Source of the DNA: a virus
Virus genome (UHGV): UHGV-0132372
DNA: 36,038 nt
Strand: one strand, 5' to 3'
Under the pieces are notes generated by a model that was not told where the DNA came from, did not search any database, and was given only the letters and a program-made list of their open reading frames with translations. Position numbers and translations under genes: made by a program. This document shows positions 2,807 to 35,988 of this stretch, in pieces; within the stretch, counting starts at the first letter, position 1; the number at the start of each line of letters is the position of its first letter.

Positions 2807-3103
2807 TCAGTCATTACTGATAGCGCCATAGCGTGAGCGGTAATTACGCAGGCGCGGGTCGATATATTCAGGGAAGTGGGTATATGTGGCTTTGCGGAAT
2901 GGTCGGATTGATGTCTGGTAAATTCGCTCGCGTTCTTCTTTCTCTGCAAGCCATATACAATGGCGAAATTCCTTTTCCTCTTTCGTTTCCTGCGGTAGCG
3001 ACATTATCAGGTCGTAGTTTTTTCTGAATTTATCCAGCACCTCCGATACGGAATTGCCGGAACAGCGGCGCGGGTCATCCGCACCATACAGAGGCGCTGG
3101 CAT
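2807..3103 (-). CDS. hypothetical protein (98 aa)
   Basis: ORF track entry in the co-directional operon. Confidence 0.45.
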
Positions 3104-4399: not shown

Positions 4400-4588
4400 T
4401 CAGAATGGTAATTCGGATGGGGAGGAAAGAAATTCGCGCTCATTCATGCGCTCTCTTTGTGCTTGCCATAAACAAAGTTGTTTCTTTGATTTATCTCCCG
4501 CTTTACGCCAGTAACGAGCCTCAGCAATGTGATATTCTCTTTTTAATCGACTTAACTCTGGAGTTTTCGCCAGCTCTACCGGAATCAT
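4400..4588 (-). CDS. hypothetical protein (62 aa)
   Basis: ATGA overlap with the upstream small gene. Confidence 0.4.
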   Translation of the reverse strand: MIPVELAKTPELSRLKREYHIAEARYWRKAGDKSKKQLCLWQAQRERMNEREFLSSPSELPF

Positions 4589-4698
4589 TTAGACCTCCAT
4601 TTTCTGTAGGCTTCGACGGCCTCACCAAACATCTTTTCATCGCCAATAAAAGTGGCGATAGTGAATTTAGTCTGAATAGCCATAAGTGTTTTATCCAT
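4585..4698 (-). CDS. small protein, possibly Kil-like (by synteny after cIII)
   Basis: ATG overlaps the cIII stop (AATGGATAA); 37 aa, MDKTLMAIQTKFTIATFIGDEKMF...; the longer ORF-track version (4585..4788) would overlap cIII in another frame. Confidence 0.4.
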   Translation of the reverse strand: MDKTLMAIQTKFTIATFIGDEKMFGEAVEAYRKWRSK

Positions 4699-4837
4699 TT
4701 TTTGGAACTCCTGGCTGATTAAGTACGTCGATGAGTCGTTTCCATCCGTCACGTAATTTACGGGTGATTCGTTCAAGTAAAGATTCATTTAATTGGAAGG
4801 CACCCATGCGAGCGCCTCCCGCGATTGCGTAAATCAT
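4691..4837 (-). CDS. cIII: CIII-like regulator (FtsH inhibitor)
   Basis: Not in the ORF track (48 aa). AAGGAA RBS; translation MIYAIAGGARMGAFQLNESLLERITRKLRDGWKRLIDVLNQPGVPKNG matches the lambda CIII core ESLLERITRKLRDGWKRLID.LNQPGVPKNG. Confidence 0.8.
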   Translation of the reverse strand: MIYAIAGGARMGAFQLNESLLERITRKLRDGWKRLIDVLNQPGVPKNG

Positions 4838-4861
4838 GGGTGGTTCCTTATGTTGGTTTTA

Positions 4862-5830
4862 TTAGTAGGTTATTTTTGTTGCGAATACTTCGCCTTTTAC
4901 GATGGCTGTTATGATATTTTTAGCAACATCTTCTGATGCGCCAACCTTGATAAGGTCAGCAAGTATTTTGTTATTTACTTCTTTCCGGTGAGCTTTATCC
5001 TTTGCTCTACACTCTTCTTCTTCCTTGATTCTTTTTTCTTCTGCTATTCTGGCTTGCTCTTTTGCTTCAGCCTCGCGCCGGATTCGTTCAGCCTCCTCCT
5101 GTGCTTTTCGGCGTTCTGCTTCAATTGCCGCCTGCTTTTCTCTTTCAGCTCGTTCTGCTGCCTCTTTTGCTTCGCGCTGTGCTCGTTGCTCGGCTTCAAT
5201 GCGTTCACGCTCTGCACGTTCCGCTGCGGCCTTAGCTTCTGCTTCTCGCCTTGCTGCTGCTTCAATTTCGGCTTTTGCCTTTGCTTCGGCTTCTGCTCTG
5301 GCTTTCTCTTCAGCTTCTCTTTTTAAGCGTTCTTCATGCTCTCGCTTTTCCTGCTCCGCTTTGAGTCTTGCCTCTTCTCTTTGGCGGTCAAATTCGCGAT
5401 CCATCAAAATAGCTATTTCATGGTCAGACTCAATTTGCTTTGCGAGAGCTTCAGCTGCTGCCTTAGCTTCTTCTTCGGCTTTAATCCGTGCCTGTTCCTC
5501 CTCATAATCAGTAAGAGGCTGGCGTGCCTTGGATTTCAGCTCATCAAGGCGATCACGCACTGTCTTGCGGTTGGCATCAATTAGCTTTGGAATTTCCTTC
5601 AGTTCAGCAACAAGGTCTTTTCCAAGACCATCGAGATATGTTTTCGTCTGCGCAACTTTATACGCCAGAGAAGCGATCTCCTTTCTGCCCTTTGCCGTTG
5701 TGATATCAGGCACAAAGGACATAACTTCACGTTCAACCTTTTGAAGGATTTCTTCAATCTGGTCGGCAGACTGAAATACAGTCATTGCATTTGCTTTTTC
5801 AATAACAACTAAATCTGTTACTTCACTCAT
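4862..5830 (-). CDS. coiled-coil protein with a long Glu/Ala/Arg/Lys-rich low-complexity core (322 aa)
   Basis: GGAGGA RBS before the ATG at 5830 (the ORF-track start at 5884 is probably an upstream extension); ~180 aa of EAKAKAEAE/RREAE repeats between a globular N-terminal domain and a short C-terminal domain. Confidence 0.6.
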   Translation of the reverse strand: MSEVTDLVVIEKANAMTVFQSADQIEEILQKVEREVMSFVPDITTAKGRKEIASLAYKVAQTKTYLDGLGKDLVAELKEIPKLIDANRKTVRDRLDELKSKARQPLTDYEEEQARIKAEEEAKAAAEALAKQIESDHEIAILMDREFDRQREEARLKAEQEKREHEERLKREAEEKARAEAEAKAKAEIEAAARREAEAKAAAERAERERIEAEQRAQREAKEAAERAEREKQAAIEAERRKAQEEAERIRREAEAKEQARIAEEKRIKEEEECRAKDKAHRKEVNNKILADLIKVGASEDVAKNIITAIVKGEVFATKITY

Positions 5831-5964
5831 ATATCCTCCATCAAAAAAATCGCCCTCACATCGGAGGGCAAAGAAGATTTCCAATAATCAGAACAAGTCG
5901 GCTCCTGTTTAGTTACGAGCGACATTGCTCCGTGTATTCACTCGTTGGAATGAATACACAGTGC

Positions 5965-6153
5965 TTATTCGTCATGCATTTCAGGTAATTCTTCGTATTC
6001 GACTCCCCATACGAGTTTACACCAAGTGACTCGCTCATATCTTTTACAAAAATCAGACCACATAACTTGTGTTCCATCATGGTTTGTTATTACTTCTGTA
6101 ATATCACCAACACTAACAAAACTGGTATTAGAAGCAGTTATTTTTACTTTCAT
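5965..6153 (-). CDS. hypothetical protein (62 aa)
   Basis: ORF track entry; adjacent to the stop of the upstream gene. Confidence 0.4.
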   Translation of the reverse strand: MKVKITASNTSFVSVGDITEVITNHDGTQVMWSDFCKRYERVTWCKLVWGVEYEELPEMHDE

Positions 6154-6446
6154 TACTTATCCCCAAGAGCTTTTCTGATTGCTGCAAGACCTTTATTAAC
6201 AGCTTCATACCATTCTGGATATGTTGTCGTTGTTCTATTTTTGGATTGCTTAAGTAATAACTGAAGTGCTTCGAGAAGGTCAGGTGCTGCCGCTATCAGT
6301 AGCGCATCCTCCCTTTCATTTCTTGTTGCTGCTTCAATGTATGTGTCACCAATCGTCACACCATGGAACGTAGTCATCATCTCGTTGACGTTTCTAACCG
6401 TGTACTTCCATTTACCAGGCGTACCCTTAAACTCTTTCATATTCAC
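6153..6446 (-). CDS. hypothetical protein (97 aa)
   Basis: AGAGGTGA RBS before the ATG at 6446. Confidence 0.5.
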   Translation of the reverse strand: MNMKEFKGTPGKWKYTVRNVNEMMTTFHGVTIGDTYIEAATRNEREDALLIAAAPDLLEALQLLLKQSKNRTTTTYPEWYEAVNKGLAAIRKALGDK

Positions 6447-6460
6447 CTCTGTTGTTTATG

Positions 6461-6488
6461 CCCAAAATAAAGGCCGACTATGCGGCCT
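6461..6488 (-). terminator. intrinsic terminator-like hairpin (AGGCCGCATAGTCGGCCT followed by TTATTTT on the minus strand)
   Basis: 6-bp GC-rich stem at 6471..6488 followed by a U-run; part of a ~38-bp element repeated at 6976..7012. Confidence 0.45.
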
Positions 6489-6492
6489 GAAA

Positions 6493-6942
6493 TTACTTAA
6501 CCAATGATGCTGCATATTCGATAAGGTAAAGCTTTGGGGCCAGCCAAATTTTTAACCAAGTCATATTGGTTACTACACCAATAATAAAAATCCCCCACAG
6601 AGTCAAAACTACAACCAATGGCATGATAAGAAGATTAATATCACCTTTGCTATCCCAAACCATTGTCGGCCTGTATTTGGGATTTCCTTTCTCCCATGAA
6701 TATCCTTCATCACCGATTTTACCTGTCTCAACTCTTTGGCACTGCTTCTTCATAAACCAGAAAACCAGTGGGATTGTTAGAATGGCCATTAATGTTTTAA
6801 TCAGACTGTCAACCATATTCCATAGCAGCAACTGATGAACAACATCAGGAATCTGTGCCTGGCTAAATGAAACAGCCGCGTCTATTCCATTACTGGCTTT
6901 TTGCAGTAGTTCTACGAGAATCTTGTTTGCTTGTTCTTCCAT
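6493..6942 (-). CDS. membrane protein with two predicted TM helices (possible superinfection-exclusion type, by position)
   Basis: Hydrophobic segments LIKTLMAILTIPLVFWFM and LLIMPLVVVLTLWGIFIIGVV; GAGGTGA RBS; AT-rich; lies in the N-to-cIII accessory slot. Confidence 0.55.
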   Translation of the reverse strand: MEEQANKILVELLQKASNGIDAAVSFSQAQIPDVVHQLLLWNMVDSLIKTLMAILTIPLVFWFMKKQCQRVETGKIGDEGYSWEKGNPKYRPTMVWDSKGDINLLIMPLVVVLTLWGIFIIGVVTNMTWLKIWLAPKLYLIEYAASLVK

Positions 6943-6990
6943 ATCTCACCTCAAATAATTCAGTGCAGTGTTTATTCTGTTGTTTATGCC

Positions 6991-7012
6991 AAAAGAAGGC
7001 CGACTATGCGGC
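6991..7012 (-). terminator. second copy of the terminator-like element (weaker stem)
   Basis: GCCGCATAGTCGGC hairpin followed by CTTCTTTT on the minus strand; copy of the 6448..6486 element. Confidence 0.3.
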
Positions 7013-7022
7013 ATAATTATTT

Positions 7023-7211
7023 TTAACTATCATCAATACATGGCACTTTATTCCAGTCGATATCGTTTTTATTGTCGTCCCACATGTCTTTGTTTTTGTA
7101 TTTCTCGCTACATCCTAGGCAAATGTTGTATGGCCTACCGATAAGGTTTAACGAAATACGTTGCATTTCATTTGATTCAAACATGTATCCACAGAACTGA
7201 CATTTATGCAT
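7023..7211 (-). CDS. small zinc-ribbon-like protein (62 aa, CxxC...CxxC)
   Basis: MHKCQFCGYMFES...NICLGCSEKY; AT-rich; flanked by the repeat elements. Confidence 0.45.
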   Translation of the reverse strand: MHKCQFCGYMFESNEMQRISLNLIGRPYNICLGCSEKYKNKDMWDDNKNDIDWNKVPCIDDS

Positions 7212-7293
7212 ATCTCACCCCTCATACAGTAGCTTACTGCCTAATTTCATTTTCTGGCGACCAACACAAGTCACACCCATTTCACTGCGTGGC

Positions 7294-7351
7294 TTGCGGT
7301 AGCTCTACGAGAATCTTGTTTGCTTGTTCTTCCATATATCACCTCAAATAA
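7294..7351 (-). pseudogene. duplicated RBS plus first 12 codons of the 6493..6942 membrane-protein gene (truncated remnant, MEEQANKILVEL then out of frame)
   Basis: 58 bp matches 6901..6958 with 3 mismatches and is fused by a TTGC microhomology to a 28-bp copy (7270..7297) of N-gene sequence 7591..7618. Confidence 0.6.
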
Positions 7352-7535
7352 GTGGTTTGCTGCGAAAGTAAATACGCTTAAGTTACCTGTTATTTATCCC
7401 ACCAAGTTCCGTATCTATCTATCCAGTTACACCAATCATCGACACTCCATTTTGTTGTGTCGCATTTTGGCAACTGGCATGAATATCTACCTTCTTTGTA
7501 AAGTCGGCGTTTGACTTTCTTGAGCATGGCTCACC

Positions 7536-7868
7536 TCAATCGTAATAAGCTGGAATTGATTTTCCGCGTTGCTTCTGGCGGCCTGAGCATGTCACACCCA
7601 TTTCACTGCGTGGCTTGCTGTACCATGTGCGATGATTCTTGCGCTCAACAGCTTCAGCGCGTTTTTCCATCTCTTCCCGATACTCAGCCAGCACCGTTAA
7701 ATCAATCGGGTTCAGAGCGCTTTCTACGCGTGATTTAGGCTTTCGAGTCAGCGAGAGAATTTTGCGGGTGTCTGGCTTGGCGCTTACCCCAACTAACAGG
7801 GGGTTTGCTGCTTTCCATTGAGCCTGTTTCTCTGCGCGACGTTCGCGGCGGCGTGTTTGTGCATCCAT
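7536..7868 (-). CDS. N: antitermination protein N
   Basis: Translation MDAQTRRRERRAEKQAQWKAANPLLVGVSAKP...RVESALNPIDLTVLAEY matches lambda N (Arg-rich boxB-binding N-terminus); AGGAGA RBS; nutL lies upstream. Confidence 0.9.
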   Translation of the reverse strand: MDAQTRRRERRAEKQAQWKAANPLLVGVSAKPDTRKILSLTRKPKSRVESALNPIDLTVLAEYREEMEKRAEAVERKNHRTWYSKPRSEMGVTCSGRQKQRGKSIPAYYD

Positions 7869-8136
7869 CTGGATTCTCCTGTCAGTTAGCTTTGGTGGTG
7901 TGGTGGCTGGTAGTCTAGCTCCAGCTTGTTGAGTCTCATTCGGAGGGGTATAACCGGCACCCCAGTGATTTTTCCATGCGACAACGTGCGCGTTATGGCG
8001 GCCTTATCGCCCGCGGCTCCCCATCTCGTCCACGCTATTGCTAGCGTTGGGAGCGCTTCACCGCTCAACAGTAGGTAAGCACTTGCCAGTGACTAGCTGG
8101 CTTCACCACACCCCAAAGCCTTCTGCTTTGAATGCT

Positions 8137-8166
8137 GCCCTTCTTCAGGGCTTAATTTTTAAGAGC
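8137..8166 (-). promoter_or_regulatory. nutL (boxB GCCCTGAAGAAGGGC, boxA GCTCTTAAA on the minus strand)
   Basis: Plus strand reads GCCCTTCTTCAGGGCTTAATTTTTAAGAGC, the reverse complement of lambda nutL; lies between pL and N. Confidence 0.8.
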
Positions 8167-8206
8167 ATCACCTTCATGGTGGTCAGTGCGTCCTGCTGAT
8201 GGCTAG

Positions 8207-8268
8207 ATAATCACAAATTGTGTTCGTGCTGTCAACACGAAATGTGATTGTTTTTATCACAACACGTG
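8207..8268 (-). promoter_or_regulatory. pL promoter with three oL operator repeats
   Basis: Minus strand TTGACA (8230..8235), 17-nt spacer, GATTAT (8207..8212); operator-like repeats ATCACA-N4-GTG at 8210..8222, 8236..8248 (inverted) and 8256..8268. Confidence 0.6.
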
Positions 8269-8308
8269 TTTTCATTGATTTTTAAGGTAATTTAATTTTC
8301 TTTGGGCA

Positions 8309-8331
8309 ACAAAAAACCCGCCGAAGCGGGT
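8309..8331 (-). terminator. intrinsic terminator downstream of the repressor gene
   Basis: ACCCGCTTCGGCGGGT hairpin followed by a U-run on the minus strand, just after the cI stop and before pL. Confidence 0.5.
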
Positions 8332-8356
8332 TTGATGTTTTTAAGTGGCGGGTATA

Positions 8357-8998
8357 TCAGGAGAATTTCATCATCATCTGCACTGCTACGCCGATTATCT
8401 TGCAGTTGCCGTCGATTGGGATCAACGGATAGGCAGGGTTAAGCCCTTTCAGGTATTTGTTACCGCCATCAATGATTAGCTTCTTGAACGTGGCTTCATT
8501 AGCATCTGTCAGCTTCGCAACTACCAGGCTTCCATTAACGGCTTCCTTTCCAGTGTCGAACAGAACCAGCATACCCTCAGGAACGCTAAGGCCGGTAGGA
8601 GCTGTCATTGAGTCGCCCTGAACCCTGAGCCAGAAGGCGTCACCGACAACGTGACAATCTGATTCATACCACTCATCCACTGCCTGAGGGTTGTACGGCT
8701 CTACGGCCTCACTCCATGCACCTGCGCTAACCCAGCTAATCAACGGAAACTTTTCCCCTGGCTTGTATTGTCCCTGATAGTTGTCGCCAAAAAGCAGTTC
8801 TGCCGGAGCGACGCCCAAAGCTTTAGCTATTACCTCTGCGTCATCAACACTAACGCTTCTGGTTCCTGATTCATAGTTGCCGATCCGAGATTGTGAAGCC
8901 CAGCCGCAAAGCTCCGCCAGCGCCTTCTGTGAAAGCCCTTTATCTTCCCGTAATCGCTTGATACGCGCGGCGATAGTTTCTGTTCTGTTCATGCGCAT
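8357..8998 (-). CDS. cI: CI/C2-type prophage repressor (HTH plus LexA/S24-like autocleavage domain)
   Basis: N-terminal HTH (LSQKALAELCGW...NYESG); C-terminal domain PLISWVSAGAW...VQGDSMTAP...VVAKL...ATFKKL matches the P22 C2 / lambda CI S24 domain; divergent from cro across the operator region. Confidence 0.85.
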   Translation of the reverse strand: MRMNRTETIAARIKRLREDKGLSQKALAELCGWASQSRIGNYESGTRSVSVDDAEVIAKALGVAPAELLFGDNYQGQYKPGEKFPLISWVSAGAWSEAVEPYNPQAVDEWYESDCHVVGDAFWLRVQGDSMTAPTGLSVPEGMLVLFDTGKEAVNGSLVVAKLTDANEATFKKLIIDGGNKYLKGLNPAYPLIPIDGNCKIIGVAVQMMMKFS

Positions 8999-9003
8999 TT
9001 TAT

Positions 9004-9069
9004 ATCACATTCCGTGGTTTAAGGCTTTACACGATTTGTGTTGACTATCAATCACAATATGTGTTTAAT
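9004..9069 (+). promoter_or_regulatory. oR operator repeats and pR promoter
   Basis: Three ATCACA-N4-GTG-type repeats (9004..9016, 9030..9042 inverted, 9052..9064); TTGACT (9041..9046), 17-nt spacer, TTTAAT; AAGGAA RBS for cro follows. Confidence 0.55.
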
Positions 9070-9102
9070 AAAGACTGAGTGAACTAGCTCTTAAGGAAAC
9101 CT

Positions 9103-9318
9103 ATGAACAACATTGCCAACGAACGGAAAAAGCTTGGCATCACTCAATCTGCGTTAGCAGGCGCGTGTGGCTGGAACCAGTCCCGCTTAGCTAACTACGA
9201 GTCAGGTATCCGGACTCCAGATTTAGAGTCGTGCCGTCGCCTGGTAAAGGCGCTGAATAAATTGGGGAGCAAGACAACGCTAGATGGCTTGTTCCCGCCG
9301 GAACACAAAGCCGCTTAA
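9103..9318 (+). CDS. cro: Cro-like HTH repressor
   Basis: 71 aa; HTH LGITQSALAGACGWNQSRLANYESG resembles the repressor HTH; divergent from cI. Confidence 0.7.
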   Translation: MNNIANERKKLGITQSALAGACGWNQSRLANYESGIRTPDLESCRRLVKALNKLGSKTTLDGLFPPEHKAA

Positions 9319-33798: not shown

Positions 33799-34083
33799 AA
33801 GCTTTCCTACAACAAGTCCGAACATTAAGAACGCAAAGTTCAATAAATCTCTGTCCATAAATCCTCCTGTTTACCAAAACTATATCAAACTTTAACGCAA
33901 TGCTGCGCAACTTAAGTGACTTTCAGGTTGATAACAGACACTCTTTTTTGCATGATTCCTTTAGACCATCACAATTGATGAAGAATCATGAAAAGAAGAA
34001 CTCTTCTAAAGTCTTTGCTCGGCCTGACGTCACTCTTACCAGTTAAGTTTGCAGCATCTCAAAACCTGCAAGGTAAAAGTATA

Positions 34084-35988
34084 ATGTCAGACATTACACC
34101 CAATGTTGTAGTGAGTATGCCTTCGCAACTCTTCACTATGGCTCGTTCTTTTAAAGCCGTAGCTAATGGTAAAATTTATATCGGTAAAATTGACACTGAC
34201 CCGGTAAATCCTGAAAACCAGATTCAGGTTTATGTGGAAAATGAAGACGGTTCTCACGTTCCTGTTTCGCAACCAATCATCATTAACGCTGCTGGATATC
34301 CGGTATATAACGGACAGATTGCCAAGTTCGTTACTGTGCAAGGCCATTCCATGGCTGTTTATGATGCGTATGGGGCGCAACAATTCTATTTTCCAAACGT
34401 ATTGAAGTATGATCCAGATCAATTAGAAAGCAGGTTGTCGGAAACTAATAGTACAGTAATGATATCTGGAGTAACCGCATCAAAAATAGCAAGTAATGTT
34501 ATTGCAACAGAATATCTTGAGTCGCCAAATGTATATGATGTGTTTGTTACGTATGGGCAGTCAAATAGCGCAGGTGAGGCTATTTTATCTGGCGATACGT
34601 CAGGCTTTCCTGCCGCTCTGCCGAAATCACTAATGTATGATTTTAGTGATGGAGCAATAAAGCCAATTATACAGAATGTGGTTAGTTCTTCTGGCGTTGC
34701 ATCATCTGGACATGCATGGGGGGAATTCGAGAATGAATGGTATCGCCTTAGCGGGCGCGGTTCAGTGGAGGTACACTGCGGCCGTGGCGCAACTACCATT
34801 GCACAGCTATCAAAAGGGACCACATACTACACGCTGTTGGTAAATGCCGTGGCGTCAGCTAAACAGGCAATGATTGCCGCTGGTTTGCCTGTCGGTAAAA
34901 CGTACGTGATGTACCACCAGGGTGAGTCGGATATGACGGCAGGGACAACATACAATGCTTATAGAGACAGCTTTATAGCCTTGATAGATGATCTGAAAAC
35001 CGATATTAATTTTGATTTATTTTGTAATTTTACCGTTGGTTGCCCGGGGAACCGAACGGAAGAATCATGGGCTGCTATTCAAAATGCGCAAAGGTGGGTT
35101 TGTAATAGCAAGACTAACGCTGTGACAGTATTTGACGGTTGCCCTTCATTTTTAAAAGGCGATGGCAATATTGGCACTACTGATGGAGGCGTTCACTATA
35201 CGCAACGCGGTTACAATACAATGGGGCGAGAAGGTGCCAGAGGATTATGGTCATTAGTTAAAGGTGGGGCAAGCAATAAAACCTCAACCGATTTAGCACA
35301 ATATTCAAATTTTGCCCCACCGTGGACAAGGGCGAAATTAGTCGCCGGTACTATTAAATACAGCAATGATAACGCTAAATGGGTTCTTTTATCTAAAGAA
35401 GTAAACAGTGAATGGAAAGTTTCCAATGCCCATAAATTAGTTGTTTCTGCTGATGGGGAATATTTTTCTGTAGAAATTGCAGACAATGCCGAAAACTGGT
35501 TTTATGCCGCCGCGGGCGTCGACCGCGCTACAGCTATAACAGGTGTCAGGTCCTACGCAGAACCTCTTCGTGTGGGAAATGCATTCACATTAAAAATTAC
35601 TATGCATGCCGACGTTTCTTTCCTTGTTAATACAAAAACAGGAGTCATTCGTTATGGAAGACCGCCTTCAGGCTCTGGTGTCCCAGAGTGGATTAGAAAT
35701 AATATCTCTGTTTCTGTGGTGAGTGCTGGCATCGTGGAAATAACGCATGGCCGCACTGCAACAATGCCATCAGCAACATATTACGCCACTAGTGACGGAA
35801 CATTATCTGCGGCAAATGTATCTGTATATGCCGGGTCAACCACAACGACAAGAGTTTATTGTGATAAAGCAAACACTGATAATCCCTGGGTGGTTGTTAC
35901 ACTTAGAGATTTACTAATTACTCCTGCCAACATGCAACATTACGATATTTCAATTAACTTTAACGGAATTTATGCGCCATCCGCATGA
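34084..35988 (+). CDS. tailspike: P22-type head-binding domain fused to an SGNH/SASA-like esterase receptor domain
   Basis: N-terminus [12 protein letters not shown]...[23 protein letters not shown]...[13 protein letters not shown]...NVLKYDPDQ matches the P22 gp9 head-binding domain; downstream GQSNSAG and HQGESDM motifs; start placed at ATG 34084 (the ORF track extends to 33988). Confidence 0.8.

What the first reader, a model, noticed from the sequence alone, without database searches (positions are those of the whole stretch)
5965..7351. Uncharacterised accessory cassette with recombination scars between N and cIII
Four small genes lie between N and cIII: a 62-aa zinc-ribbon protein, a 149-aa two-TM membrane protein, and 97-aa and 62-aa proteins. 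They are AT-rich and are separated by two copies of a ~38-bp terminator-like element (6448..6486 and 6976..7012). A 58-bp copy of the membrane-gene start (7294..7351 versus 6901..6958) is fused through a TTGC microhomology to a 28-bp copy of N coding sequence (7270..7297 versus 7591..7618). In lambda this interval carries sieB, ral and ea10, so this is a likely slot for exclusion, anti-restriction or defence genes, and the scars indicate recent cassette exchange.
Basis: partly seen in the sequence, partly recalled or inferred. Interest (0 to 1): 0.55.

Follow-up and report, generated by a model that had tools for sequence, protein, structure and literature searches.

The report
Mosaic accessory genes downstream of phage N
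Just downstream of the antiterminator gene N, this P22/lambda-like prophage carries five small, common but uncharacterised phage genes joined at conserved linker sequences, plus one rare illegitimate recombination joint; this is a well-resolved but ordinary case of lambdoid mosaicism, not a new system.

Summary
The repeats are real and far beyond chance.

The "N copy" is the last 28 codons of a different N allele, 99.7% identical to mEp213. It is joined at an imperfect TTGCnGTA microhomology to the first 12 codons of TM149. That joint occurs in only 2 of 5426 complete E. coli genomes and 3 IMG/VR contigs.

The "terminator-like" repeat is the conserved 3' linker and terminator that follows TM149, ral and Zn62 in many lambdoid phages, and runs into the region Sf6 annotates as a boundary sequence.

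All five proteins fall in widespread PHROG families of unknown function. None matched defence models, PDB sequences or known folds. Relatives of two were included in a published accessory-gene screen and are not among the genes reported with a phenotype. The accessory-slot and recombination reading is supported. A defence or anti-restriction function is not shown.

The parts
7536..7868 (-). Antiterminator N, lambda type, 110 aa; upstream anchor of the accessory slot
   Evidence: Pfam N36 E=9e-23. The putative nutL boxB complement lies at 8137-8151 and the pL-like promoter at 8235..8207.
7390..7527 (-). 45-aa DUF5484 gene, identical to Sf6 gene 36 protein. Its start sits 8 nt after the N stop, which overlaps the SD sequence.
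   Evidence: Pfam DUF5484 E=2.6e-12 and phrog_1871. Its cluster is seen on about 1000 contigs.
7344..7363 (-). Small remnant of the last codons (..SKPLI*) of an N allele, followed by the SD of the TM149 module
   Evidence: Matches the N end plus SD of E. coli 09A19CPO009 (L002), where N abuts TM149 directly. It also aligns 89% with lambda 34346-34381 upstream of orf28.
7294..7351 (-). Duplicate of the SD and first 12 codons of TM149. Together with the N' fragment it forms a 17-codon pseudo-ORF, MEEQANKILVELPQATQ* (7335..7282).
   Evidence: 55/58 identical to 6901-6958. It is contiguous with N-DUF5484 in BEN2908, whose match starts exactly at 7294. Translation.
7215..7301 (-). 3' end (28 codons plus stop) of a second N allele (mEp213/Louie type), joined to the TM149 start at the imperfect microhomology TTGCnGTA (7294-7301)
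   Evidence: Window 6976-7301 is 99.7% identical to mEp213 N plus mEp213_050, and the match ends exactly at 7301. Translation is identical to the mEp213 N C-terminus. A probe across the junction is found in 2 of 5426 E. coli genomes and 3 IMG/VR contigs.
7023..7211 (-). Zn62: 62-aa CxxC...CxxC zinc-ribbon protein with an acidic tail. It occupies the position that ral holds in many relatives.
   Evidence: phrog_19863 E=6e-47, unknown function. Identical to mEp213_050. The family is small: 9 representatives among 1.84 billion proteins. Resemblance to Lar is weak, hhalign probability 11%.
6976..7027 (-). Linker copy 2: truncated hairpin plus TTTTGGCATAAACAACAGAATAAACACTGCACTG. This is the 3' linker that came in with Zn62.
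   Evidence: Repeat families D5/D6. It is homologous to lambda 34040-34093, just 3' of ral. In Louie this linker runs straight into the bsq4 region.
6493..6942 (-). TM149: 149-aa membrane protein with two predicted TM helices. It has conserved N-terminal (1-44) and C-terminal (127-149) segments and a fast-evolving core.
   Evidence: phrog_3054 E=1e-64. 516 homologous clusters across Enterobacteriaceae, all named hypothetical. Alignments A1 and A2. Codon analysis. AF2 pLDDT 64.5, helices 33-68 and 106-125.
6448..6501 (-). Linker copy 1: intrinsic-terminator-like hairpin AGGCCG-CATAGT-CGGCCT plus TTATTTT directly after the TM149 stop, then GGGCATAAACAACAGA and the SD of p95
   Evidence: Terminator scan hit at 6488..6471. 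It is conserved after TM149 in about 75 IMG/VR loci. Divergent alleles carry different hairpins, one (L080) followed by a clear T-tract.
6153..6446 (-). p95: 95-aa protein (probable ATG at 6440; 97 aa from the GTG) with the motif EDAxLIAAAPDLLEALQ
   Evidence: phrog_1273 E=4e-27. Homologues are 95 aa and carry PF27050. PGAP names a relative 'XkdD/Y8K6 family'. AF2 pLDDT 67 and no fold match.
5965..6153 (-). p62: 62-aa protein whose ATG overlaps the p95 stop (TAATG), so it is probably translationally coupled
   Evidence: phrog_10407 E=1.5e-45. Its cluster is on more than 1000 contigs. The partners of p95 homologues in mEp213 and Sf101 are not homologous to it.
5831..5964 (-). Conserved downstream anchor: the Sf6 'bsq4' boundary sequence, which includes the tL2a-like terminator (5871..5850)
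   Evidence: 95.6% identical to lambda 33911-34045. The Sf6 record annotates bsq4 and tL2A here. The RNA fold shows three hairpins, z=-5.2.

Best explanation
This is the variable accessory segment of the early-left (pL) operon of a P22-like (Louie/Sf6-like) lambdoid prophage. It lies between the fixed anchors N and the tL2/bsq4 terminator cluster. It is a chain of independently exchangeable small-gene modules, each of the form [stop-overlapping SD GAGGTGA..ATG - ORF - short conserved 3' linker].

Shown: the present array is a patchwork of four known arrangements.
1. N-DUF5484-TM149 start, as in E. coli BEN2908.
2. N' 3' end-Zn62-linker, as in mEp213 and Louie.
3. TM149-linker-p95-p62, as in E. 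coli 09A19CPO009.
4. bsq4-coiled-coil gene-cIII, as in Louie and Sf6.

Pieces 2/3 and 3/4 meet inside the conserved linkers. That is what homologous exchange at boundary sequences predicts, and it explains the two copies of the 'terminator-like' element.

Pieces 1 and 2 are joined by one illegitimate, unequal exchange at the imperfect microhomology TTGCnGTA, between codon 12 of TM149 and codon 83 of N'. It left a 17-codon pseudo-ORF and a dead N' tail.

Inferred: all modules are transcribed only from pL. DUF5484 and Zn62 would be made with N. Genes beyond the TM149 terminator would depend on N antitermination. They would therefore act early in lytic growth, as ral and kil do, not in the lysogen.

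My committed but weakly supported guesses for function are as follows. TM149 is an inner-membrane protein whose conserved termini do the work and whose TM/loop core tracks a variable partner, giving an exclusion or envelope-directed function. Zn62 is a positional substitute for ral. p95 with its variable partner is a two-protein unit.
For: Parental matches break exactly at the joint:
- mEp213 matches 6976-7301 at 99.7%.
- BEN2908 matches 7294-7910 in one piece, and 98.1% over 7294-7560.
- The N' tail is identical in protein to the mEp213 N C-terminus.

The joint is real and rare:
- It occurs in 2 of 5426 complete E. coli genomes and 3 IMG/VR contigs. One of those contigs is 100% identical to window 4601-7709.
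- All copies matched the same 29-nt probe containing TTGCGGTAGC and sit in at least four architectures, including the reverse gene order N-Zn62-joint-DUF5484.

The linkers are shared across phages:
- They are homologous to lambda 34040-34093 (3' of ral) and contiguous with bsq4/tL2a in lambda, Louie, Sf6 and BEN2908.
- The boundary-sequence model is summarised in PMC3233612.

Modules assort freely. Among 80 IMG/VR loci, TM149 is preceded by N, ral, DUF5484 or Zn62, and followed by ea10, the coiled-coil gene, p95-p62 or cIII.

Expression: only pL was found as a minus-strand promoter-like site. The terminator after TM149 is conserved, and divergent alleles carry alternative hairpins.

Selection on TM149: per codon, the core shows 0.25 nonsynonymous vs 0.12 synonymous changes, and the C-terminal 23 aa show 0.035 vs 0.17.

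This interval is a recognised accessory region. Silas et al. (bioRxiv 10.1101/2023.04.06.535777) drew ral, orf184 (mEp213_045), orf47 (a TM149 relative) and orf123 (a p95 relative) from this part of lambdoid genomes, placing orf184 in the same accessory region as ral.
Against: - No function is demonstrated for any protein. The AF2 models are weak (pLDDT 64-67) and the fold searches found nothing.
- orf47 and orf123 are not among the genes Silas et al. list with phenotypes. This gives no support to a counter-defence or PCD-trigger role, although they are only relatives and the screen was not designed for exclusion.
- The promoter scan is a crude consensus match and could miss a weak internal promoter.
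- The order and number of recombination events cannot be reconstructed uniquely. The joint carries two bases (G at 7298, C at 7303) that match none of the sampled parents.
- Terminator activity of the hairpins is untested.
Confidence: 0.8

Rival explanations
1. The cassette is a prophage-expressed defence or superinfection-exclusion unit (moron-like), with TM149 acting like SieB, Imm or Sp to block incoming phages from the lysogen.
For: - The slot holds sieB in lambda and SieB-family or P22 gene-17-like exclusion genes in relatives.
- TM149 is a membrane protein with its own downstream terminator, low GC and a fast-evolving core.
Against: - No promoter-like site upstream of TM149 on the coding strand.
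- No PADLOC hit.
- No similarity to SieB by hhalign, probability 0.1%.
- The relative orf47 has no reported phenotype in the Silas screen.
Confidence: 0.2
2. Zn62 is a restriction-alleviation protein, a functional analogue or distant relative of Lar or Ral, filling the ral position.
For: - It sits exactly where ral sits relative to the shared 3' linker and TM149: 'ral TM149' in at least 13 loci and 'Zn62 TM149' in 2.
- It has the same size and CxxC...CxxC layout as Lar, and aligns collinearly with a Lar-family protein over 50 columns at 28% identity, sharing CxFCG, RPY and DWN.
- A distant family member touches Pfam Lar_restr_allev at E=0.04.
Against: - Every similarity score is below significance: hhalign probability 11%, and Pfam Lar 14.6 bits against a cutoff of 28.6.
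- No similarity to Ral.
- Zinc ribbons converge easily.
Confidence: 0.15
3. The repeats are copies of a small mobile or REP-like element, or an assembly chimera, rather than recombination footprints.
For: The hairpin-containing repeat occurs twice within 530 bp.
Against: - The core occurs only twice in 36 kb, always directly after a gene stop, and at the same position in dozens of other phages.
- The joint is present in independent complete genomes and metagenome contigs.
Confidence: 0.03
4. The scar is functional: the 17-codon ORF with its strong SD acts as a leader peptide or translational coupler controlling Zn62.
For: - Intact SD and ATG, an in-frame stop, and preservation at 96-100% identity in several contexts.
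Against: - Zn62 has its own SD and is expressed without the scar in mEp213 and Louie.
- The preservation is explained by recency.
- In other contexts the same scar precedes different genes.
Confidence: 0.05

Closest known systems
Lambda pL-operon interval N - sieB - orf28 - ral - ea10 - cIII
   Same: - Same anchors: N, the tL2a/bsq4 region (95.6% identical) and cIII.
- Same 3' linker after the last accessory gene.
- Same SD-and-start design as orf28.
- Same position in the operon.
   Different: None of lambda's four genes is present. They are replaced by DUF5484, Zn62, TM149, p95 and p62, and a 322-aa coiled-coil gene takes the place of ea10.
Boundary sequences of lambdoid phages (bsq1-5 annotated in Shigella phage Sf6, AF547987), i.e. 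the homologous-recombination-at-linkers model of mosaicism
   Same: Window 5850-5964 corresponds to Sf6 bsq4. Short conserved sequences flank different genes in different phages, and module borders fall inside them. The model is summarised in PMC3233612.
   Different: One of the joins here (7294-7301) is not at a boundary sequence. It lies inside two coding regions at an 8-nt imperfect microhomology, so it is an illegitimate event of the kind the alternative model invokes.
Accessory regions and accessory genes screened by Silas et al. (bioRxiv 10.1101/2023.04.06.535777; Nat Commun 2025, PMC12373910)
   Same: - The same N-proximal part of lambdoid genomes supplied ral (orf87) and orf184 (mEp213_045); the paper places orf184 in the same accessory region as ral.
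- It also supplied orf47 (AEW47744.1, 2 TM), which shares the N- and C-termini of TM149.
- It also supplied orf123 (Sf101 AII27858.1), which shares the p95 motif and ends.
   Different: - The tested proteins are relatives, not these alleles: orf47 is 60% identical with a different core, and orf123 is 46% identical.
- Neither is listed among the genes with a phenotype.
- Exact N-terminal strings of Zn62, p62 and DUF5484 were absent from the text-held supplements.
Morons of lambdoid phages (promoter-gene-terminator insertions)
   Same: Low GC relative to neighbours, and a gene followed by an intrinsic terminator (TM149).
   Different: No promoter of its own was detected. The genes are co-oriented within the pL operon and appear to rely on it.
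Lar (Rac prophage) and Ral restriction-alleviation proteins
   Same: Zn62 is a small zinc-ribbon protein in the ral position, with weak collinear similarity to Lar.
   Different: It falls below every significance threshold and has no similarity to Ral.

Membership tests
Lambdoid boundary-sequence-delimited mosaic module | Short conserved non-coding sequence flanking non-homologous genes in different phages | tested here: met
   The 3' linker follows ral (lambda), gene 34 (Sf6), Zn62 (mEp213, Louie) and TM149 (about 75 IMG/VR loci). The bsq4 region is shared by all relatives examined.
Lambdoid boundary-sequence-delimited mosaic module | Breakpoints of similarity to relatives fall within those sequences | tested here: met
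   The mEp213 match starts at 6976, inside the linker. The Louie matches to 6961-7301 and to ..5964 abut each other in Louie. The p95 module begins right after ..CAACAGA. The exception is the 7294-7301 joint, which lies inside coding sequence.
Intrinsic (Rho-independent) terminator | GC-rich hairpin followed by a U-tract on the transcribed strand | tested here: met
   Copy 1 (6488..6471) has a 6-bp stem with 5 GC pairs, a 6-nt loop, then TTATTTT. Copy 2 has only a 4-bp stem.
Intrinsic (Rho-independent) terminator | Structure conserved through sequence change in relatives; termination activity | tested here: inconclusive
   Divergent TM149 alleles carry different hairpins at the same place: L080 has a related stem with a T-tract, and L077, L078 and L092 share another hairpin whose tail is not a clean T-tract.
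Moron | Own promoter upstream of the inserted gene | tested here: not met
   The consensus scan of 4500-9200 finds only pL on the coding strand. The scan is crude.
SieB superinfection exclusion family | Sequence or profile similarity to SieB | tested here: not met
   No Pfam hit. hhalign of the TM149 alignment against lambda SieB gives probability 0.1%.
Ral antirestriction family (PF11058) | Sequence similarity to Ral | tested here: not met
   No Pfam hit for any of the proteins. BLASTP of Zn62 against lambda Ral finds no alignment.
Lar restriction alleviation family (PF14354) | Match to the family profile above its threshold | tested here: inconclusive
   Zn62 has no Pfam Lar hit. A distant relative, P0313, scores 14.6 bits against a cutoff of 28.6. 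hhalign against a Lar-family protein gives 50 collinear columns at probability 11%.
Known anti-phage defence systems (PADLOC-DB v2) | Match to any defence protein model | tested here: not met
   Zero families for the five small proteins at E<=0.1.
DUF5484 (PF17583) | Match above the Pfam gathering score | tested here: met
   46.7 bits against a cutoff of 27 for the 45-aa protein. The family has no known function.

The most novel reading that the evidence does not exclude
TM149 (phrog_3054) could define an unrecognised class of early phage inner-membrane effectors. The family has more than 500 clusters across Enterobacteriaceae. It has near-invariant termini under strong purifying selection, a swappable and fast-evolving TM/loop core, and a dedicated terminator. 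Its variable core would track a diversifying target, such as incoming-phage ejection proteins or host envelope components. That would give exclusion or envelope remodelling during the lytic cycle. In addition, p95 plus its always-overlapping but non-homologous partner could be a two-component specificity system.
Probability: 0.2. Interest if true: 0.45.

Novelty: new member of a known kind. Interest (0 to 1): 0.25.

Why it matters
The locus has modest value in three ways.

1. It shows both proposed mechanisms of phage mosaicism side by side within 1.4 kb, with the parental arrangements identified. These are exchange at conserved linkers and illegitimate microhomology joining.
2. It flags four or five very common enterobacterial prophage gene families that sit in the slot that yielded ral, sieB and a trigger of gop-beta-cII, and that still have no function.
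3. The TM149 family's conserved-ends, variable-core pattern makes it a reasonable candidate for experimental follow-up.

It does not reveal a new kind of system.

Tried and rejected
- **Family libraries.** Pfam, NCBIfam and PADLOC scans of all proteins gave only DUF5484, N36 and cIII. PHROGs gave families of unknown function.
- **Names in public databases.** All are 'hypothetical protein'.
- **PDB sequence search.** Four proteins searched, with only chance-level hits.
- **Structure prediction.** AF2 models of TM149 and p95 had pLDDT 64.5 and 67.1. Foldseek against BFVD and PDB gave nothing at E<=0.001, only generic helical hairpins.
- **Profile search of Zn62.** The search against 1.84 billion representatives found 9 hits, three of which look like spurious zinc-finger repeat proteins (confirmed by Pfam for one, P0309), and no link to an annotated family.
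- **Profile comparisons.** hhalign of TM149 against SieB was negative. Zn62 against Ral was negative and against Lar sub-threshold.
- **Rfam.** Scan of 4500-9200 at E<=1 found no RNA family.
- **Literature.** Searches for DUF5484 and XkdD found nothing relevant. The supplements of PMC12373910 hold no data on orf47 or orf123.
- **Rejected ideas.** I considered that the hairpin repeat was a mobile element and that the joint was an assembly artefact. Both were rejected.
Full report
**What is there**

The interval lies in the early-left operon of a lambdoid prophage, and every gene is on the minus strand. The window as a whole is closest to P22-like podophages Louie, Dewey, CurroJimenez and CUS-3.

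Reading in the direction of transcription:

| Feature | Coordinates | Note |
|---|---|---|
| pL-like promoter | 8235..8207 | |
| nutL boxB | complement of 8137-8151 | |
| N | 7868..7536 | Pfam N36 |
| Scar | 7351..7215 | |
| Zn62 | 7211..7023 | 62-aa zinc ribbon |
| Linker copy 2 | 7027..6976 | |
| TM149 | 6942..6493 | 149 aa, two TM helices |
| Linker copy 1 | 6501..6448 | |
| p95 | 6440/6446..6153 | |
| p62 | 6153..5965 | ATG overlaps the p95 stop |
| Hairpin/terminator cluster | 5964..5831 | conserved |
| Coiled-coil gene | 5830..4862 | 322 aa |
| cIII | 4837..4691 | |

So six genes, not four, lie between N and cIII.

**Are the repeats real?**

Yes.
- The 58-nt repeat is 55/58 identical with a 34-nt exact run.
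- The N-derived repeat is 43/50 identical, with a 28-nt exact run.
- The longest exact repeat in 200 dinucleotide shuffles averages 10.6 nt, with a maximum of 13.
- The hairpin core GGCCGACTATGCGGC occurs exactly twice in the 36-kb window.
- GC is 36-44% across the cassette, against 50-56% in N and the repressor gene.

**The scar**

The segment 7301..7215 is not a copy of the resident N. It encodes ...KPRSEMGVTCVGRQKMKLGSKLLYEG*, the exact C-terminus of the N protein of phage mEp213.

Window 6976-7301 is 99.7% identical to mEp213 (N 3' end, mEp213_050, linker), and the match stops at 7301. In the other direction, E. coli BEN2908 carries N-DUF5484-TM149 contiguously. Its match to the window (7294-7910) begins at 7294.

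The two parental arrangements therefore overlap by 8 nt. This is an imperfect microhomology: TTGCTGTA in N', TTGCAGTA in TM149 and TTGCGGTA in the window.

The product is SD plus 12 TM149 codons, running out of frame into N' for 5 codons: MEEQANKILVELPQATQ*. The order 'downstream gene start followed by upstream gene end' is what an unequal exchange (or tandem duplication) between two N-...-TM149 arrays produces.

A 56-nt probe centred on the joint matches in full in only 2 of 5426 complete E. coli genomes, ABWA45 and L4_E1441. A 29-nt exact pattern finds 3 IMG/VR contigs. One of these, IMGVR_UViG_3300045988_016961, is 100% identical to window 4601-7709.

The joint is therefore real and not an assembly artefact. 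All copies matched the same exact 29-nt probe containing TTGCGGTAGC. The joint sits in at least four architectures, including the reverse order N-Zn62-linker-joint-DUF5484. That pattern points to a single origin followed by homologous exchange in its flanks.

A further small vestige lies at 7363..7344, between DUF5484 and the duplicated TM149 start. It is the last codons of an N allele (..SKPLI*) plus the SD.

**The 'terminator-like' repeat**

The hairpin AGGCCG-CATAGT-CGGCCT plus TTATTTT follows the TM149 stop codon directly. The same arrangement is present after TM149 in about 75 of 80 IMG/VR loci. Divergent alleles carry a different hairpin at the same place, one of them (L080) followed by a clear T-tract. 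A terminator function is therefore plausible but untested.

The T-rich part plus GGCATAAACAACAGAATAAACACTGCAC is homologous to lambda 34040-34093, immediately 3' of ral. In lambda, Louie, Sf6 and BEN2908 it runs straight into the segment corresponding to window 5831-5964 (lambda 33911-34045, 95.6%). The Sf6 GenBank record annotates that segment as 'bsq4; boundary sequence' together with terminator tL2A. It folds into three hairpins with z=-5.2.

Louie has N'-Zn62-linker-bsq4 with nothing in between. The window equals that arrangement with TM149-linker-p95-p62 inserted at the linker, which is why the linker is present twice. Copy 2 has lost part of its 5' stem arm.

This is the boundary-sequence mode of lambdoid mosaicism, summarised with its illegitimate-recombination alternative in PMC3233612. 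The locus shows both modes.

**How variable is the slot?**

No phage record and no complete E. coli genome contains 80% or more of 5800-7900 in one place. Even so, 2302 of 5426 genomes match parts of it.

In 80 IMG/VR loci that carry TM149, the gene is preceded by N, ral, DUF5484 or Zn62. It is followed by ea10, the coiled-coil gene, p95-p62 or cIII, in more than 35 combinations.

Other occupants seen in relatives include SieB-family proteins, a P22 gene-17-like 'superinfection exclusion protein', Nmad5, DUF7446, DUF7167 and a Ser/Thr phosphatase. Lambda itself has sieB, orf28, ral and ea10.

**The proteins**

All five small proteins match PHROG families of unknown function with E-values from 1e-22 to 1e-64. 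None matches NCBIfam or PADLOC. Only the 45-aa protein matches Pfam, as DUF5484. Their 90% clusters are seen on tens to more than 1000 contigs, and the full-length members are all called hypothetical. No PDB sequence relative exists.

*TM149.* It has 516 homologous clusters across Escherichia, Salmonella, Citrobacter, Cronobacter, Kluyvera and Pantoea. Residues 1-44 and 127-149 are nearly invariant, while the TM1-loop-TM2 core varies.

Sf6 gp34 (140 aa) and the 121-aa AEW47744.1 share the same ends around unalignable cores.

In ten divergent alleles the core has 0.25 nonsynonymous and 0.12 synonymous codon changes per codon. The C-terminal 23 residues have 0.035 and 0.17. The ends are therefore constrained as protein, not only as recombination handles, and the core evolves fast.

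The AF2 model is weak (pLDDT 64.5; helices 33-68 and 106-125) and has no fold match. There is no similarity to SieB.

*p95.* Its homologues are 95 aa and carry PF27050, which is absent from the local Pfam copy. They share the motif EDAxLIAAAPDLLEALQ. The AF2 model has pLDDT 67, with a confident C-terminal helical hairpin only and no fold match.

Its homologues in mEp213 and Sf101 are also followed by a stop/start-overlapping small gene. Those partners are not homologous to p62.

*Zn62.* It has CxxC...CxxC and an acidic tail. Its family is tiny, with 9 representatives among 1.84 billion proteins, some of them spurious.

It occupies ral's position relative to the linker and TM149. It aligns collinearly with a Lar-family protein over 50 columns at 28% identity, but at hhalign probability 11% and below Pfam thresholds. 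This is a lead, not a finding. There is no similarity to Ral.

**Published context**

Silas et al. (bioRxiv 10.1101/2023.04.06.535777; PMC12373910) treat such hotspots as 'accessory regions' and screened about 200 accessory genes in wild E. coli. Their list includes:
- ral (orf87);
- P22 gene 17 (orf144);
- mEp213_045 (orf184), which is in the same accessory region as ral and triggers the gop-beta-cII abortive system;
- a TM149 relative (orf47, 2 TM);
- a p95 relative (orf123) and its Sf101 partner (orf57).

Only orf184 and ral of these are reported with phenotypes. The slot is therefore known to hold counter-defence and defence-triggering genes. The families present here remain without a phenotype.

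**Mechanism**

Shown:
- the modular architecture;
- the parental sources;
- the positions and nature of the joins;
- the conservation of the linkers and of the terminator hairpin after TM149;
- the free assortment of modules.

Inferred:
- Transcription is from pL only, because only pL scores as a promoter on the coding strand.
- DUF5484 and Zn62 would be co-expressed with N. Expression beyond the TM149 terminator and the tL2 cluster would depend on N.
- The genes would therefore act early in lytic growth.

My functional commitments are low-confidence. TM149 would be an envelope or exclusion effector whose variable core tracks a diversifying partner (about 0.2-0.3). Zn62 would be a ral-slot substitute, possibly restriction alleviation (about 0.15). 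p95 and its partner would work as a pair.

**Verdict**

The locus is a new combination of catalogued modules in a known accessory region, built by known processes. Interest is low to moderate.

Noticed in passing
window 5831-5964 (minus strand): The conserved segment between the accessory genes and the coiled-coil gene folds into three hairpins, including a strong tL2a-like terminator (5871..5850). The fold has z=-5.2 against shuffles. The segment is 95.6% identical to lambda 33911-34045 and equals Sf6 'bsq4'.
   Followed up: partly
window 7324-7360 vs lambda 34346-34381 (L011): The region upstream of and including the start of lambda orf28 aligns 89% with the 'N-end remnant + SD + MEE..' start of the TM149 module. 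Lambda orf28 may therefore be a vestige of a TM149-family gene start left behind by insertion of sieB and ral.
   Followed up: no
L003 (mEp213) 815-1087 and 2240-2572: Phage mEp213 carries two different N genes (HK620 type and lambda type), each followed by its own accessory genes. This is a larger-scale product of the same kind of unequal exchange inferred for the window's scar.
   Followed up: no
L006 (E. coli ABWA45) 2743-2858; L010 (E. coli L4_E1441) about 2959-3098; L007: In these prophages the TM149-start::N-tail joint is present without an intact lambda-type N upstream. PGAP annotates only a partial 'regulator' pseudogene nearby, and the joint precedes different genes (DUF5484-DUF7446, Nmad5, a p95 relative).
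   Followed up: partly
window 4862-5830 (minus strand): The 322-aa gene is highly charged, with an A/E/K/R-rich coiled-coil centre. Relatives annotate it variously as TolA, 'coiled-coil domain protein' or 'phi80 Agt-like / Gam antitoxin'. It has no Pfam hit, and it sits where lambda has ea10. The ORF finder's TTG start at 5884 overlaps the tL2a hairpin; the ATG at 5830 with GGAGGA is the likely start.
   Followed up: partly
window 6153; Sf101 KJ832078.1 25536-25539; L003 1715-1718: p95-family genes are consistently followed by a small gene that overlaps their stop codon, but the partner differs completely between phages (62, 53 and 67 aa with no detectable similarity). This suggests a conserved-plus-variable two-gene unit.
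   Followed up: partly
window 6940-6954, 7209-7223, 7333-7347, 7525-7539: Four gene starts share the motif TTGAGGTGAnnTATG, in which the upstream gene's TGA stop overlaps a strong SD. This is a recurrent 5' module border that may serve both translational coupling and recombination.
   Followed up: no
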